From assembly GCF_055900595.2 (NCBI RefSeq), contig NZ_CM148325.1: a stretch of DNA of 64,000 nucleotides, one strand, 5' to 3'. The notes beneath the pieces were generated by a model. That model had not been told where the DNA came from. It searched no databases and was given only the letters and a program-made list of their open reading frames with translations. Each line of letters starts with the position of its first letter. Position 1 is the stretch's first letter. Position numbers and translations under genes: made by a program. Positions 39,004 to 46,565 of the stretch are shown in pieces.

Positions 39004-40170
39004 GTGAAAAACTACAAAGTTATTACTCCGCTTTTTCCTACCTATGCGCAAGTTAAGGCTATGATGAAAGCCGTATCAGGCTATTCCCTGAAAGCGGTGC
39101 GCAATATGATTACTGCCATTCACGAGCAAACCGGAACGCCGCAAAAACCCGTTGACTGGTCGGAACCTGACCTGTGGATCAGCGAACGCTTAACGGGTGA
39201 AGATGCCGACATCGCCCGTCGTATTTGGGATACCGATAATCACATATTGAACCCGCGCCACAGCTACGGCTGCTACTTATTCCTTAACTATCCCCAGTTT
39301 GAGCTGATGGAAAGCACGCCAGACGATACCTGGCAGCCCACCTCGCGCGGGCAAAAATTCCTGCAAGATGACGAAAAAACGCTGCGTTCACTGGACGATC
39401 AGGAAGGCATTCTGCAACTTCTTGAACTGTTGGCAGGCCGTGAAATGTCGCGCCGCGCCGATTTATTGCCGGAATGGCAGGCCTTTTTGCATCAACATTC
39501 AAAATTCGCGTCTGCCAGTTCGGTGAAAAGCACACTCTACTCCCGACTCTATAATCTTATCGACCGTGACATGGTTACTCGCGAAGGTATGAGCTATCGC
39601 ATCACCGATACCGGGCGCGCCTGGCTTGGAAAAGCGTTGCCGGCACGAAAAAGCGATCCGCGTAAAGAGCTGCTGGAAGCGGTGAAACGCTACAACGAGC
39701 AGCAAAAAGAGCTGCTGCGCGAGCAAATCAGCACGATGAACCCGTACAAATTTGAGCAACTGGTCGGTCAATTACTGGAAGCAATGGGCTACGAGCAGGT
39801 CGAAGTGACCAAAGCCTCAGGCGATAAAGGCGTGGACGTGATTGGTCAGGTGCAGGTCGGCATCACCACCATTACAGAAGTGGTGCAGGTCAAAAGAATG
39901 CAGAACACTATCACTCGCCCGTATATCGACCAGTTGCGCGGGGCGTTGCCTTACCACAAAGCCATTCGCGGTACGCTCATCACCACCGGGAAATTTGCGG
40001 CGAAATGTGCAGAAGCGGCGCTCTTTCCGGGGGCAGCGCCCATTACGCTTATCGACGGCGATCGCTTACTGGAACTGTTAATCGAAAATAACGTCGGCAT
40101 TCGCCGCAGCAATGCAGTGGAATTGCTGGATGTAGATTTGCAGTTGTTTGATGAGCTGGAGATGGATTAA
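39004..40170 (+). CDS. Mrr-family restriction endonuclease-like protein with long N-terminal region
   Basis: 388 aa; C-terminal Mrr-cat-like block (FEQLVGQLLEAMGYEQVEVTKASGDKGVDVIG...VQVKR); GTG start in track, alternative ATG about 20 codons in. Confidence 0.65.
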   Translation: MKNYKVITPLFPTYAQVKAMMKAVSGYSLKAVRNMITAIHEQTGTPQKPVDWSEPDLWISERLTGEDADIARRIWDTDNHILNPRHSYGCYLFLNYPQFELMESTPDDTWQPTSRGQKFLQDDEKTLRSLDDQEGILQLLELLAGREMSRRADLLPEWQAFLHQHSKFASASSVKSTLYSRLYNLIDRDMVTREGMSYRITDTGRAWLGKALPARKSDPRKELLEAVKRYNEQQKELLREQISTMNPYKFEQLVGQLLEAMGYEQVEVTKASGDKGVDVIGQVQVGITTITEVVQVKRMQNTITRPYIDQLRGALPYHKAIRGTLITTGKFAAKCAEAALFPGAAPITLIDGDRLLELLIENNVGIRRSNAVELLDVDLQLFDELEMD

Positions 40171-40233
40171 AGGGCGAAATCTGCCGTCTCTACCATTACA
40201 ATAGCGACCCAATTTATCTGAACAGAGTTCATC

Positions 40234-43301: not shown

Positions 43302-46300
43302 ATGAGTCTCTCTTTCAGTGAAGCAAAATTAGAACAAGCGATCATTGAACTGTTACAGGATCAGGGATATCAACACCTGATCGGCGATAATGTCCCACGT
43401 TCAAGTCTCGATCAGGTCATTATCGAAGACGATCTCCGTCATTATTTAGCGGCACGCTACCAGCCTGATGGCATTACTGAAGAAGAGATTCAGCGACTGA
43501 TCAAACAGTTCACCACGCTCCCCGCTTCCGATCTTTATGAAAGCAACAAAACATTTTGTCGCTGGCTGGCAAATGGTTTTCTGTTCAAACGCGACGATCG
43601 GCAACAAAAAGATCTCTATATTGAATTGCTCGACACCCGGCATCTACCTGCCGCACTGCGCCAGATATTTGACGCCGAAGATGTCCCGTTGCAACAGGCG
43701 GCGGAACTCCCGCCCTCCTATATTAATCCGCCGCTTAACCGGATTAAGATTGTTAACCAGCTTAAAATCTCTGGTAAAGATAATCAGACTCGTATTCCTG
43801 ACGGCATTCTCTATATCAACGGTCTGCCACTGGTCGTCTTTGAATTTAAAAGTGCGGTGCGCGAGCAGGATGCCAGTATTGGCGATGCCTGGAAGCAGCT
43901 CTGTAAACGCTATCGCCGGGATATTCCGCAACTGTTTATCTACAACGCGCTCTGCATTATTAGCGATGGCGTTAATAACCGGATGGGCAACCTGTTTGCG
44001 CCCTATGAATATTTTTACTCATGGCGCAAAGTCACCGGTAATGAAAACCGTGAACAGGACGGAATTCCGTCATTGCACTCAATGATTCAGGGGCTGTTTC
44101 ATCCGGTACGTCTGCTGGATGTGATTAAAAACTTTATCTGCTTCCCGGATAAAGCCAAGCACGAAGTAAAAATTTGCTGCCGTTATCCGCAGTACTATGC
44201 CGCCCGCAAACTCTATTACAGCATCAAGCAAGCGCGTAAACCTTTCGGTAGCGGTAAAGGCGGCACCTACTTTGGCGCAACGGGCTGTGGCAAAAGTTAC
44301 ACCATGCAATTTTTAACGCGTCTTTTGATGAAGAGCGTGGAGTTTGCCAGCCCGACCATTGTTTTGATCACCGACCGCACCGATCTGGACGATCAGCTTT
44401 CTGCGCAAATGTGCAATGCCAAAAATTACATTGGCGACGACACCATCGTTCCTGTTACCAGCCGTGAAGATTTGCGTAATCAACTGGCGGGACGCAATAG
44501 TGGCGGTGTATTCCTGACAACGATCCATAAATTCACCGAAGACACCGAACTCCTTTCTGAACGCAGCAATATCATTTGCATCTCGGACGAAGCACATCGC
44601 AGCCAGGTTAACCTCGACCAGAAAGTCATCGTCGATAAAGAAAGCGGAAAAGTGCGCAAAACTTATGGCTTTGCGAAATACCTGCACGATTCACTGCCAA
44701 ACGCCACCTATGTTGGCTTTACCGGAACTCCGATTGACGCAACACTCGATGTCTTCGGTGAGGTGATCGACAGTTACACCATGACCGAATCCGTTCAGGA
44801 TGAAATCACTGTACGCATCGTGTACGAAGGCCGTGCGGCTAAAGTGATCCTGGACTCCAGCAAACTGGAAGAAGTCGAAAAGTATTACGAAGAGTGCGCA
44901 AACGCAGGCACCAATGAGTGGCAAATCGACGAAAGCAAAAAAGCCACCGCAACCATGAATGCGGTACTGGGTGATGAAGATCGGTTAAAAGCCCTCGCGG
45001 AAGATTTTGCTAAACATTATGAAAAACGCGTAGCCGAAGGTTCCACCGTAAAAGGCAAAGCCATGTTTGTTTGTGCCAGCCGTGAAATTGCCTGGGATTT
45101 CTACCGTCAGCTTAAAGCTATTCGCCCTGCCTGGTATGAAGTGAAGCAAGCCCCCGATGGCGTCGTCCTGACAGAACAGGAGCAAAAAGAGTTACCGCCT
45201 TCTGAAATGGTGAAGATGGTCATGACGCGCGGTAAAGATGACGACGAGGCGCTTTATGATTTACTGGGCACAAAAGAATATCGTAAAGAGCTGGATAAGC
45301 AGTTCAAAAACGCTAAATCGAATTTCAAAATTGCCATTGTTGTTGATATGTGGCTGACCGGTTTTGACGTTCCTGAACTGGATACCATCTATATTGATAA
45401 GCCCTTACAAAAACATAACCTTATCCAGACCATTTCTCGCGTTAACCGTAAACTGGAAGGCAAAAGTAAAGGGTTAGTGGTGGACTACATCGGCATTAAA
45501 AGTCAGATGAACCAGGCACTGGCAATGTATTCCCGCATTGATGCCACCAACTTTGAAGATATTCAGCAATCGGTAATCGAAGTTAAAAACCATCTCGATT
45601 TGTTGGGGCAAGTCTTTTACGAATTTGACAGTCGGGATTATTTTAGTGGTGAGCCACAAGCGCAATTATCCTGCCTCAACCGCGCGGCGGAATTCGTTCT
45701 GAGTACCCAGAAAGTTGAACGTCGTTTTATGGGACTGGTTAAACGCATGAAAGCCGCCTACGACGTCTGCTGCGGCAGCGAAGCATTATCACAGACAGAA
45801 CGTGACTATATTCACTATTATCTTGCTGTTCGTTCAATTGTTTTCAAACTGACGAAAGGTGACGCACCGGATGTTACCCAGATGAATGCACGCGTTCGCG
45901 AAATGATTGCAGAAGCGTTAAAAGCTGATGGCGTAGAAGAGATTTATTTTCTTGGCGATAAAAAAGCGGAATCCATCGATATTTTTGACGAAGATTATCT
46001 GGCGCGAATTAACAAGATCAAACTTCCGGCAACGAAGATCCAGTTATTACAAAAATTACTGGAAAAAGCAATCAGCGACTTCAAGAAAGTGAACCAGTTG
46101 CAAGGGATTAACTTCACCCGCCGCTTCCAGGCGATTATAGATCGTTATAATGAGCGGCGAGAAGATGATGTACTCAACGGTGAAGAATTCGATACATTCA
46201 GTCAGGAAATGACCGATATTATCTATGATATTAAAACCGAAATGGGTACCTGGGCCGACTTAGGCATTGATATTGAAGAAAAAGCCTTTTTCGACATTCT

Positions 46301-46565
46301 TGCTCATATGCGCGATAAATATCAGTTCACCTATGACGATGAAAAAATGCTGTCACTGGCAAAAGAGATGAAAAGCGTGGTTGACAACACATCGAAATAT
46401 CCTGACTGGAGTAAACGCGATGATATTAAAGCGAAACTGAAAGTTGAACTTATTCTGCTTCTACACAAGCATAAGTTCCCGCCAGTAGCGAATGATGATG
46501 TTTATATGGGTGTGCTGGCACAGGCAGAGAATTTTAAAGAACACCATATGAGTGCTTTAAATTAA
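43302..46565 (+). CDS. hsdR: Type I restriction enzyme R subunit (nuclease + SF2 helicase)
   Basis: ORF 43290 (TTG) trimmed to ATG 43302 after ggag RBS; nuclease-like VVFEFK, Walker A GATGCGKSYT, DEAH box ISDEAHRSQ. Confidence 0.9.
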   Translation: MSLSFSEAKLEQAIIELLQDQGYQHLIGDNVPRSSLDQVIIEDDLRHYLAARYQPDGITEEEIQRLIKQFTTLPASDLYESNKTFCRWLANGFLFKRDDRQQKDLYIELLDTRHLPAALRQIFDAEDVPLQQAAELPPSYINPPLNRIKIVNQLKISGKDNQTRIPDGILYINGLPLVVFEFKSAVREQDASIGDAWKQLCKRYRRDIPQLFIYNALCIISDGVNNRMGNLFAPYEYFYSWRKVTGNENREQDGIPSLHSMIQGLFHPVRLLDVIKNFICFPDKAKHEVKICCRYPQYYAARKLYYSIKQARKPFGSGKGGTYFGATGCGKSYTMQFLTRLLMKSVEFASPTIVLITDRTDLDDQLSAQMCNAKNYIGDDTIVPVTSREDLRNQLAGRNSGGVFLTTIHKFTEDTELLSERSNIICISDEAHRSQVNLDQKVIVDKESGKVRKTYGFAKYLHDSLPNATYVGFTGTPIDATLDVFGEVIDSYTMTESVQDEITVRIVYEGRAAKVILDSSKLEEVEKYYEECANAGTNEWQIDESKKATATMNAVLGDEDRLKALAEDFAKHYEKRVAEGSTVKGKAMFVCASREIAWDFYRQLKAIRPAWYEVKQAPDGVVLTEQEQKELPPSEMVKMVMTRGKDDDEALYDLLGTKEYRKELDKQFKNAKSNFKIAIVVDMWLTGFDVPELDTIYIDKPLQKHNLIQTISRVNRKLEGKSKGLVVDYIGIKSQMNQALAMYSRIDATNFEDIQQSVIEVKNHLDLLGQVFYEFDSRDYFSGEPQAQLSCLNRAAEFVLSTQKVERRFMGLVKRMKAAYDVCCGSEALSQTERDYIHYYLAVRSIVFKLTKGDAPDVTQMNARVREMIAEALKADGVEEIYFLGDKKAESIDIFDEDYLARINKIKLPATKIQLLQKLLEKAISDFKKVNQLQGINFTRRFQAIIDRYNERREDDVLNGEEFDTFSQEMTDIIYDIKTEMGTWADLGIDIEEKAFFDILAHMRDKYQFTYDDEKMLSLAKEMKSVVDNTSKYPDWSKRDDIKAKLKVELILLLHKHKFPPVANDDVYMGVLAQAENFKEHHMSALN

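What the first reader, a model, noticed from the sequence alone, without database searches (positions are those of the whole stretch)
39004..46565. Co-directional Mrr-like nuclease, hsdM, hsdS, hsdR cluster (M-S-R order)
Unlike K-12, where mrr is divergent from an hsdR-hsdM-hsdS unit (recalled), here a 388-aa Mrr-catalytic-domain protein with an extended N-terminal region sits 63 bp upstream of hsdM on the same strand, followed by hsdS (start overlapping the hsdM stop) and then hsdR after an 94-bp gap containing a hairpin. M-S-R order is reminiscent of the Type IC/prr arrangement, but no prrC-like anticodon nuclease lies between S and R. The Mrr-like protein could be an independent Type IV (modification-dependent) enzyme or a fourth component of the system.
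Basis: partly seen in the sequence, partly recalled or inferred. Interest (0 to 1): 0.6.

Follow-up and report, generated by a model that had tools for sequence, protein, structure and literature searches.

The report
Type ID restriction locus with Mrr-like nuclease
This is a common, already described E. coli restriction-modification allele (a Type ID hsdM-hsdS-hsdR system with a neighbouring Mrr-type nuclease gene), so the layout is ordinary, although what the neighbouring nuclease does has never been tested.

Summary
Four co-directional genes lie between brnTA and yjiS in the E. coli immigration control region: a 388-aa Mrr_cat nuclease (39004-40170), hsdM (40234-41853), hsdS (41843-43207, 11-nt overlap) and hsdR (43302-46565, after a 94-bp spacer).

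The layout is not new. The nuclease, HsdM and HsdR are 99.0, 99.1 and 99.4% identical to those of E. coli EC958. In that strain the system is published as EcoMII, its HsdR is reported as 92% identical to StySBLI HsdR (Type ID), and the neighbour is listed as "Mrr" (EC958_0079). About 16% of 5426 complete E. coli genomes carry the locus, including Nissle 1917 and ATCC 25922. So M-S-R is the normal order for this family, not a IC/prr-like oddity.

The nuclease is not an EcoKMrr orthologue. It shares 31% identity over the catalytic domain only, and its N-terminus is different. It belongs to PADLOC candidate family PDC-S02.

It behaves as a separable module:
- hsdM has its own conserved -10 element.
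- The gene survives hsd deletion.
- The hsd unit occurs elsewhere without it.
- Close homologues pair with other Type I families, BREX or MADS, or stand alone.

Best reading: an autonomous Type IV-like nuclease that travels with methylation-based defences. Its function is untested.

The parts
38874..38901 (+). Promoter-like site (TTGGAA-16-GATAAT) about 100 bp upstream of the Mrr-like gene, in the divergent spacer shared with brnT
   Evidence: Consensus scan. The scan found fewer sites than its shuffled controls, so this is weak evidence only.
39004..40170 (+). 388-aa Mrr_cat nuclease of PADLOC candidate family PDC-S02. It has a conserved N-domain with no Pfam match (aa 1-122), a MarR/PadR-like winged helix (about aa 124-211), a linker helix (219-244) and a Mrr_cat PD-QxK domain (243-359; D278, Q295 and K297 invariant).
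40174..40202 (+). Candidate hsdM promoter in the 63-bp spacer: -35-like GCGAAA (40174-40179), a 17-bp gap, then -10 TACAAT (40197-40202)
   Evidence: TACAATAG and GGCGAA are invariant across 7 loci from 5 genera while the rest of the spacer varies (A3). TTACAATA lies at a similar distance upstream of hsdM in strain 2452, where no Mrr-like gene is present. No terminator-like site lies in the spacer. The promoter is inferred, not mapped.
40234..41853 (+). hsdM, 539 aa, N6-adenine methyltransferase subunit (NPPF motif present)
   Evidence: TIGR00497 and PADLOC MTase_I (642 bits). 99.1% identical to EC958 M.EcoMII. 24% identical to EcoKI HsdM.
41843..43207 (+). hsdS, 454 aa, two target recognition domains. 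The start overlaps the hsdM stop by 11 nt. TRD1 (about 41854-42347, low GC) has no match of 85% or better in 5426 complete E. coli genomes.
   Evidence: 42% identical to EC958 HsdS and 68% to KE55 HsdS. TRD-level comparison. GC dip.
43216..43279 (+). Two adjacent conserved hairpins in the hsdS-hsdR spacer: 43216-43235 (7-bp GC stem followed by TTTCTGG) and 43236-43279 (11-bp stem)
   Evidence: Alignments A4 and A5, consensus fold -35 kcal/mol, stems invariant with no covariation. The role (attenuator, terminator or operator) is not determined.
43302..46565 (+). hsdR, 1087 aa, PD-ExK nuclease motif (PDG...FEFK) plus helicase motor
   Evidence: TIGR00348, 467 bits (cut-off 284.55). PADLOC REase_I, 1716 bits. 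99.4% identical to EC958 HsdR. Motif read directly from the translation.

Best explanation
The cluster is two neighbouring defence modules in the E. coli immigration control region. They are co-oriented but separable.

Module 1 is a Type ID Type I R-M system, a relative of EcoMII and StySBLI. hsdM and hsdS are translationally coupled by an 11-nt overlap. They are probably driven by a conserved promoter in the 63-bp spacer. hsdR follows a conserved double hairpin that may limit or time its expression. By established Type I mechanism, M2S methylates a bipartite target, and R2M2S translocates along and cuts unmodified DNA.

Module 2 is the 388-aa protein. I read it as an autonomous, probably modification-dependent (Type IV-like) endonuclease. 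It would use an N-terminal domain and a winged helix to read DNA, and a Mrr-type PD-QxK domain to cut.

Its family (PDC-S02) recurrently rides next to or inside methylation-based defences: several Type I families, BREX and MADS. I take this as complementary cover. The methylation-based partner handles unmodified invaders and the nuclease handles modified ones. The same logic is described for the BREX/BrxU pair.

Shown: gene anatomy, homology, distribution and separability. Inferred: promoters, enzymatic activity, modification dependence and complementarity.
For: Family assignment:
- Proteins are 99.0, 99.1 and 99.4% identical to the EC958 Mrr-like protein, HsdM and HsdR.
- EC958 HsdR is reported as 92% identical to StySBLI HsdR, and EcoMII knockout abolishes AACN4CTTT methylation (PMC4659465).
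- A 2025 review finds only Types IA, IB and ID in the immigration control region, each accompanied by Type IV genes and toxin-antitoxin pairs including brnAT (PMC12707154).

Nuclease:
- Mrr_cat at E=4e-29.
- D278, Q295 and K297 are invariant in 17 diverse homologues. By my realignment of the BLAST output they match the EcoKMrr GDGGID...VQAKR motif.

Separability:
- A conserved TACAAT lies in the spacer and also upstream of hsdM in strain 2452, which lacks the nuclease gene.
- Strain LR-28 keeps an intact 1167-nt nuclease gene beside an hsdM'/'hsdR deletion remnant.
- Homologues 80-95% identical sit beside IA-like (L004), IB-like (L014) and a fourth Type I family (L005, L010), or beside none (L006, L011).

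Association with methylation-based defence:
- Of 51 informative loci, 23 have a Type I gene as immediate neighbour and 10 have the gene embedded between hsdR and hsdM.
- Other loci place it right after BrxL, PglZ or BrxHI, or beside MADS genes.
- PADLOC PDC families were defined by this kind of embedding (bioRxiv 10.1101/2024.01.29.577857).
Against: - I found no experiment on this protein. Nuclease activity, modification dependence and anti-phage effect are all unproven.
- In about 10 non-enteric loci the gene lies between hsdR and hsdM with gaps of -4 to +24 nt. That implies co-translation in one operon and could mean a functional tie.
- In E. coli the gene and this hsd family are almost always together (879, 872 and 862 genomes; junction intact in 802).
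- No terminator-like site separates the gene from hsdM, so read-through is possible.
- The hsdM promoter is inferred from conservation only.
Confidence: 0.6

Rival explanations
1. The nuclease is functionally coupled to its methylation-based neighbour. It could be a back-up effector held in check by the Hsd (or BREX) complex and released when a phage anti-restriction protein such as Ocr, ArdA or Stp disables that complex, as with PrrC/EcoprrI or RonA/Ronin. Or it could be an auxiliary nuclease recruited by the complex.
For: - Recurrent adjacency to Type I genes: 23 of 51 informative loci.
- A stable hsdR-gene-hsdM-hsdS operon with overlapping or near-abutting genes in Pseudomonas, Stutzerimonas, Polaromonas, Limnobacter, Magnetococcales and others.
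- Near one-to-one co-occurrence with this hsd family in E. coli.
- A very conserved N-domain of unknown function.
- Precedents for effectors embedded in Type I systems: PrrC and Ronin (bioRxiv 10.1101/2023.04.06.535777).
Against: - The partners are heterogeneous: ID, IA-like, IB-like and a fourth Type I family (24-30% identical to one another), plus BREX and MADS. A shared interaction surface is hard to picture.
- 22 of 51 informative loci have no Type I gene within three genes.
- The gene persists intact after hsd deletion, and the hsd unit occurs without it.
- In the window the gene sits at the edge of the hsd unit, not inside it, and hsdM appears to have its own promoter.
Confidence: 0.2
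2. The protein is a winged-helix DNA-binding regulator of the locus (a controller protein), or a catalytically dead relic. Its nuclease fold would be retained only as a scaffold.
For: - A winged-helix domain resembling MarR/PadR regulators.
- The second-best Pfam hit is NA-iREase1, a family named as an inactive restriction endonuclease (E=1.7e-13).
- Its position immediately upstream of hsdM.
Against: - The PD-QxK catalytic residues D278, Q295 and K297 are invariant across homologues down to about 50% identity. The stronger Pfam hit is the active Mrr_cat family.
- Many homologues have no neighbouring system to regulate.
- Strain 2452 carries an intact hsd unit without this gene.
Confidence: 0.07
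3. The co-orientation is only an accident of cassette shuffling in a defence island. The nuclease is an ordinary stand-alone Type IV gene with no relationship of any kind, even selective, to Type I systems.
For: - The immigration control region is a known site of cassette-like replacement holding Type I, Type IV and toxin-antitoxin genes (PMC12707154).
- In enterics the gene occupies the same yjiA-proximal position as K-12 mrr.
Against: Adjacency to Type I, BREX or MADS genes recurs in many unrelated phyla and outside this region. It includes tight operonic embedding. That is far more than expected for a gene placed at random, or placed only loosely in a defence island.
Confidence: 0.13

Closest known systems
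EcoMII (EC958_0076-0078) with 'Mrr' EC958_0079 of E. coli ST131 strain EC958 (Forde et al. 2015, PMC4659465)
   Same: Same locus, same gene order and same flanks: yjiA, brnA, brnT, nuclease, hsdM, hsdS, hsdR. The Mrr-like protein, HsdM and HsdR are 99.0, 99.1 and 99.4% identical.
   Different: HsdS is only 42% identical, so the target sequence should differ from AACN4CTTT. In the window, symE downstream of hsdR is replaced by a low-GC hsdS/hsdM module.
StySBLI / EcoR9I / KpnAI, the Type ID family of Type I R-M systems
   Same: EC958 HsdR, which is 99.4% identical to the window's, is reported as 92% identical to StySBLI HsdR. The locus is chromosomal in the immigration control region. K. pneumoniae ATCC 13883 has the same four-gene layout, with HsdM 94% and HsdR 91% identical.
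   Different: I could not compare directly with StySBLI sequences, and no subunit complementation was done. The specificity subunit differs.
EcoKMrr (K-12 Type IV enzyme)
   Same: The same domain logic: N-terminal DNA-binding module plus C-terminal Mrr_cat with a D...QxK motif. The same yjiA-proximal position in the immigration control region.
   Different: Identity is 31% and confined to the last 173 residues. There is no Mrr_N domain. The protein is 84 residues longer, with an extra conserved N-domain. It points the same way as the hsd genes instead of diverging from them. It is not an orthologue.
PADLOC PDC-S02, a phage defence candidate found by 'guilt by embedding' (Payne et al. 2024, bioRxiv 10.1101/2024.01.29.577857)
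   Same: Full-length HMM match (residues 1-386 against profile 1-383 of 390, 686 bits, E=2e-207). My context survey reproduces the embedding in Type I R-M and BREX.
   Different: None found. The family is a bioinformatic candidate with no published function that I could find.
PrrC/EcoprrI (Type IC) and Ronin
   Same: An extra effector gene physically tied to hsd genes. Related loci embed the nuclease between hsdR and hsdM.
   Different: No PrrC-like anticodon nuclease is present. The Hsd proteins are not Type IC. Here the extra gene sits outside the hsd unit. There is no evidence for masking or activation by anti-restriction proteins.
BrxU (GmrSD) embedded in BREX
   Same: A Type IV-type nuclease riding with a methylation-based defence. 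PDC-S02 homologues sit right after BrxL, PglZ or BrxHI.
   Different: An unrelated fold (DUF262/DUF1524 versus Mrr_cat). The parallel is by analogy only.

Membership tests
Type I R-M system | Three subunits: an HsdM N6-adenine methyltransferase (NPPF motif), an HsdS with two target recognition domains, and an HsdR with PD-ExK nuclease plus helicase motor | tested here: met
   HsdR scores 467 bits against TIGR00348 (cut-off 284.55). PADLOC MTase_I 642 bits, Specificity_I 414 bits and REase_I 1716 bits. NPPF and PDG...FEFK read in the translations.
Type ID (StySBLI family) | High sequence identity of HsdR and HsdM to StySBLI, EcoR9I or KpnAI | tested here: met
   Indirect. The window's HsdR is 99.4% identical to EC958 HsdR, which Forde et al. 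report as 92% identical to StySBLI HsdR. No StySBLI sequence was available for a direct comparison.
Type ID (StySBLI family) | Subunit complementation or exchange with a known ID member (the historical definition of the family) | not testable with these tools
   This is a genetic test, described in PMC12707154 section 22.
Type ID (StySBLI family) | Chromosomal location in the immigration control region, allelic with Types IA and IB | tested here: met
   Flanked by btsT-yjiX-yjiA and yjiS-yjiR. The review finds only IA, IB and ID there.
Type IA (EcoKI) | High identity of HsdM and HsdR to EcoKI; R-M-S gene order | tested here: not met
   HsdM is 24% identical and HsdR 25% identical over a helicase segment only. 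The order is M-S-R.
Type IC (EcoR124I / EcoprrI) | High identity to EcoR124I subunits; for prr, a prrC gene between hsdS and hsdR | tested here: not met
   HsdR scores 88 bits against EcoR124I over residues 144-510 only, and HsdM 135 bits. There is no ORF in the 94-bp hsdS-hsdR gap.
EcoKMrr orthologue (classical Mrr) | Mrr_N winged-helix domain (PF14338) plus Mrr_cat, with full-length similarity to EcoKMrr | tested here: not met
   No Mrr_N hit. Similarity to EcoKMrr is limited to the catalytic domain at 31%.
Mrr_cat PD-(D/E)xK nucleases | Mrr_cat fold with the conserved D...(Q/E)xK catalytic residues | tested here: met
Type IV (modification-dependent) restriction enzyme | Cleavage only of DNA that carries a modification | not testable with these tools
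   Needs in vivo restriction assays with modified phage or plasmids, or in vitro cleavage assays.
PADLOC PDC-S02 | Full-length match to the family HMM | tested here: met
   PDLC04796, E=2.4e-207, 686 bits, residues 1-386 against profile 1-383 of 390.
PrrC/Ronin-type guard of a Type I system | Effector kept inactive by Hsd proteins and triggered by anti-restriction proteins | not testable with these tools
   Only genomic association could be examined. Separability argues against an obligate tie.

The most novel reading that the evidence does not exclude
The PDC-S02 nuclease is not a free-standing Type IV enzyme. Instead it would be an accessory effector wired to methylation-based defences in general (Type I, BREX, MADS). 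For example, it might sense their inhibition by DNA-mimic anti-restriction proteins, or sense the methylation state they write. Its strongly conserved N-terminal domain, which has no Pfam match or close structural relative, would be the sensor.
Probability: 0.2. Interest if true: 0.6.

Novelty: already known. Interest (0 to 1): 0.25.

Why it matters
The layout itself adds nothing new. It is the standard Type ID allele of the immigration control region. It is present in roughly one in six complete E. coli genomes, including ST131, Nissle 1917 and ATCC 25922. It has been described in the EC958 methylome study and in a 2025 review.

Two things remain useful:
- The gene usually labelled "Mrr" or "restriction endonuclease" here is not an EcoKMrr orthologue, so K-12 Mrr specificity should not be assumed for it. 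Its family is widespread and travels with several Type I families, BREX and MADS. No function has been tested, and very tractable strains carry it.
- This strain's hsdS has a first target recognition domain not seen in 5426 complete genomes, so it probably has a new specificity. That could affect transformation and phage work with the strain.

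Tried and rejected
- Type IC/prr idea: rejected. Similarity to EcoR124I is weak and there is no ORF between hsdS and hsdR.
- Type IA: rejected. Identity to EcoKI is 24-25%.
- Ordinary Mrr orthologue: rejected.
- Primary Type ID papers (Titheradge 2001, Sibley & Raleigh 2004, Murray 2000, the KpnBI paper): not held in the library. The ID assignment therefore rests on the EC958 paper and the review.
- NCBIfam: no family for the nuclease.
- PDB by sequence: only a marginal MspJI hit.
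- RNA structure in the hsdS-hsdR spacer: the stems are invariant, so there is no covariation for or against a structure.
- Equating the low-GC module with published Ronin: the architecture matches. HsdS and HsdM are only 32% and 29% identical to E. coli D5 Ronin, and the small ORF shows no similarity to RonA. [quoted passage not shown] The genomes listed for that architecture are not E. coli and have an upstream integrase. I could not fetch them, so I do not claim it is the same cluster.
- Technical limits: the first two Python calls failed on a file that was not yet present. Gene calls and Hsd HMMs used in the context survey are home-made, so the counts are approximate.

Full report
**1. What is in the sequence**

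The region holds four co-directional genes on the + strand:
- a 388-aa ORF (39004-40170, GTG start)
- hsdM (40234-41853, 539 aa)
- hsdS
- hsdR

The mechanical ORF list begins hsdS at a GTG (41810) and hsdR at a TTG (43290). The starts annotated in close relatives, supported by the sequence, are different. hsdS starts at the ATG at 41843, overlapping the hsdM stop by 11 nt. hsdR starts at the ATG at 43302, leaving a 94-bp gap. The spacer between the 388-aa gene and hsdM is 63 bp.

The flanks are btsT-yjiX-yjiA and a divergent brnA/brnT pair on one side, and yjiS-yjiR on the other. This is the E. coli immigration control region (ICR). In K-12 the same interval holds mrr diverging from hsdR-hsdM-hsdS.

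**2. Which Type I family**

NCBIfam and PADLOC identify the three genes as a complete Type I system. HsdR scores 467 bits against TIGR00348, above the cut-off of 284.55. PADLOC gives REase_I 1716 bits, MTase_I 642 bits and Specificity_I 414 bits.

It is not Type IA. HsdM is 24% identical to EcoKI HsdM, and HsdR is 25% identical to EcoKI HsdR over a helicase segment only.

It is not Type IC. HsdR scores 88 bits against EcoR124I HsdR over residues 144-510, and HsdM scores 135 bits. The 94-bp gap holds no ORF, so there is no prrC.

The decisive link is E. coli EC958. The window's Mrr-like protein, HsdM and HsdR are 99.0, 99.1 and 99.4% identical to those of the EC958 locus, which has the same gene order and flanks. 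Forde et al. 2015 (PMC4659465) make four relevant statements:
- They state that its R subunit is 92% identical to the R subunit of StySBLI, the founder of Type ID.
- They show that disrupting it abolishes AACN4CTTT methylation.

A 2025 review of 9,040 enterobacterial genomes finds only Types IA, IB and ID in the ICR. It says each is accompanied by Type IV genes and toxin-antitoxin pairs, including brnAT (PMC12707154).

So M-S-R is simply the normal order of the ID family, and this is a catalogued allele. The ID assignment is transitive. I could not obtain StySBLI sequences or the primary ID papers.

**3. How common it is**

Among 5426 complete E. coli genomes:

| Query | Genomes with at least 80% coverage |
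|---|---|
| 388-aa gene | 879 |
| hsdM | 872 |
| hsdR | 862 |
| 1-kb probe across the nuclease/hsdM junction | 802 |

Carriers include Nissle 1917, ATCC 25922 and EC958/ST131. The same four-gene layout occurs in E. albertii, K. pneumoniae ATCC 13883, K. grimontii, an Enterobacter and a Pluralibacter.

Only hsdS differs. It is 42% identical to EC958 HsdS and 68% to KE55 HsdS. Its second half matches KE55 at 98%. Its first target recognition domain (about 41854-42347, low GC) has no match of 85% or better in any of the 5426 genomes. This is probably a new specificity.

**4. What the 388-aa protein is**

Pfam finds Mrr_cat at residues 243-359 (E=4e-29) and no Mrr_N. Similarity to EcoKMrr is 31% and confined to the last 173 residues. 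It is therefore not an Mrr orthologue.

PADLOC matches it end to end to PDC-S02 (686 bits, E=2e-207). PDC families are "phage defence candidates". Payne et al. 2024 defined them because the genes are found embedded in BREX, DISARM or Type I R-M loci (bioRxiv 10.1101/2024.01.29.577857). I found no functional test of PDC-S02.

The family is conserved over its full length, at about 50% identity or more, in many bacterial phyla. Invariant residues include D278, Q295 and K297. By my realignment of the BLAST output they correspond to the GDGGID...VQAKR motif of EcoKMrr. From memory, those are the proposed catalytic D203, Q217 and K219 of EcoKMrr.

An AlphaFold model (mean pLDDT 80.5) shows these parts in order:
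- an N-terminal helical domain
- a winged helix
- a long linker helix
- the nuclease domain

**5. Fourth component or independent module?**

Evidence that it is separable:
- The 63-bp spacer contains TACAATAG and, 17 bp upstream, GGCGAA. Both are invariant across seven loci from five genera, while neighbouring spacer positions vary.
- TTACAATA also lies at a similar distance upstream of hsdM in E. coli strain 2452. There the same hsdMSR unit (HsdM 98% and HsdR 99% identical) sits at another chromosomal site with no nuclease gene. This points to a promoter belonging to hsdM.
- Strain LR-28 keeps an intact nuclease gene next to an hsdM'/'hsdR deletion remnant.
- Enterobacterial homologues 80-95% identical have varied neighbours. 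One sits beside an IA-like R-M-S unit (L004; HsdM 64% identical to EcoKI). One sits beside an IB-like R-M-S unit (L014). Two sit beside a fourth family with a roughly 790-aa HsdM (L005, L010). Two have no Type I system nearby (L006, L011).

Evidence for some tie:
- I examined 71 loci from a one-genome-per-species collection, using home-made gene calls and iterated HMMs. Of these, 51 had at least 2.5 kb of sequence on both sides.
- Among those 51, 23 have a Type I gene as immediate neighbour, and 29 have one within three genes.
- In 10 of them the gene lies between hsdR (about 790 aa) and hsdM-hsdS on the same strand, with gaps of -4 to +24 nt.
- That embedded class lies mostly together in a neighbour-joining tree and spans Pseudomonas, Stutzerimonas, Polaromonas, Limnobacter, Thiocystis and Magnetococcales. 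It looks like a stable four-gene operon that moves as a unit.
- Elsewhere the gene follows BrxL, PglZ or BrxHI of BREX, or sits beside MADS genes.

The partner is thus not a particular Type I family, and not even Type I as such. It is methylation-based defence in general.

**6. Most likely mechanism**

I read the window as two adjacent modules.

The Type ID system works as Type I systems do. hsdM and hsdS are coupled through their 11-nt overlap and yield the M2S methyltransferase. HsdR adds ATP-driven translocation and cleavage of unmodified DNA.

hsdR follows two hairpins conserved across genera: 43216-43235 followed by TTTCTGG, and 43236-43279. The consensus fold is -35 kcal/mol and the stems are invariant, so there is no covariation. 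They may attenuate or time hsdR expression, but this is not determined.

The 388-aa protein is most likely an autonomous Type IV-like endonuclease. Its DNA-reading domains would recognise modified DNA and complement the neighbour that attacks unmodified DNA. The same complementary logic is described for BREX with its embedded GmrSD-family enzyme BrxU, as the papers read cite. I give this about 0.6.

The main rival is a coupled effector or guard of the PrrC or Ronin kind, at about 0.2. The embedding and the conserved N-domain keep it alive. The heterogeneity of partners, the stand-alone copies and the separability argue against it. A regulator or dead-enzyme role is unlikely because the catalytic triad is invariant.

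**7. Verdict**

The layout is already known from the EC958 methylome paper, the ICR review and PADLOC PDC-S02.

Two points of modest interest remain:
- The gene is mislabelled as "Mrr". It belongs to a widespread, untested nuclease family that rides with methylation-based defences.
- The hsdS allele is probably new.

**8. Seen in passing**

Downstream of hsdR, a 30%-GC insert (46566-49300) replaces symE. It carries a (CACAT)25 microsatellite (46801-46926). It also carries a 56-aa basic and hydrophobic ORF (47221-47391), a half-size hsdS (193 aa) and a short hsdM (419 aa), with no hsdR.

That is the architecture of Ronin (Silas et al. 2023). However, HsdS and HsdM are only 32% and 29% identical to those of E. 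coli D5 Ronin, and the small ORF shows no similarity to RonA. Only one of 5426 complete E. coli genomes (MB52) has this insert. There the interval containing the repeat is about 70 bp shorter.

Noticed in passing
window 46566-49300 (small ORF 47221-47391; hsdS-like 47388-47969; hsdM-like 47972-49231): A 30%-GC insert between hsdR and yjiS replaces symE. It carries a 56-aa basic and hydrophobic ORF with a good Shine-Dalgarno sequence, a half-size HsdS (193 aa) and a short HsdM (419 aa), with no hsdR. This is the architecture of the Ronin decoy system. HsdS and HsdM are only 32% and 29% identical to E. coli D5 Ronin, and the small ORF has no detectable similarity to RonA. Only 1 of 5426 complete E. 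coli genomes (MB52) has the insert. Citrobacter sedlakii (L012) has a similar S192-M417 pair right after a truncated Mrr-like gene.
   Followed up: partly
window 46801-46926: A (CACAT) microsatellite of 25.4 copies lies in the non-coding stretch upstream of the Ronin-like module. In strain MB52 the interval from the end of hsdR to the half-size hsdS is about 70 bp shorter, which suggests repeat-length variation and possibly phase variation.
   Followed up: partly
window 41854-42347 (first target recognition domain of hsdS): The first recognition domain of HsdS is low in GC and has no match of 85% or better in 5426 complete E. coli genomes. The second half is 98% identical to KE55. This is probably a new recognition specificity made by domain shuffling.
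   Followed up: partly
window 43216-43279: Two adjacent hairpins in the hsdS-hsdR spacer are invariant across Escherichia, Klebsiella, Enterobacter and Pluralibacter, and also in the copy of the hsd unit that lacks the Mrr-like gene. This spacer is better conserved than the adjacent 3' end of hsdS. It is likely a regulatory element for hsdR, but its role is unknown.
   Followed up: partly
L024, L030, L037-L039, L042, L043, L050, L051 (around position 10000 in most): In Pseudomonas, Stutzerimonas, Polaromonas, Limnobacter, Thiocystis, Magnetococcales and others, the PDC-S02 nuclease gene lies between hsdR (about 790 aa) and hsdM-hsdS of an IB-like Type I system. Gaps are -4 to +24 nt, so this is a four-gene operon.
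   Followed up: partly
L017, L019, L022, L062: PDC-S02 homologues also sit directly after BREX genes (BrxHI, BrxL, PglZ) and beside MADS genes. The association is with methylation-based defences in general, not only with Type I.
   Followed up: partly
L074 (E. coli strain 2452, 7001-13317): A second-site copy of the Type ID hsdMSR unit (HsdM 98% and HsdR 99% identical) lies near lutC, next to ISEcp1-blaCTX-M-14 and IS903B, without the Mrr-like gene. Similarity to the window starts exactly at the hsdM start codon.
   Followed up: partly
window 38231-38807, minus strand: A brnA/brnT toxin-antitoxin pair lies between yjiA and the Mrr-like gene, diverging from it. The same pair accompanies this allele in KE55, EC958, MB52 and LR-28.
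   Followed up: no
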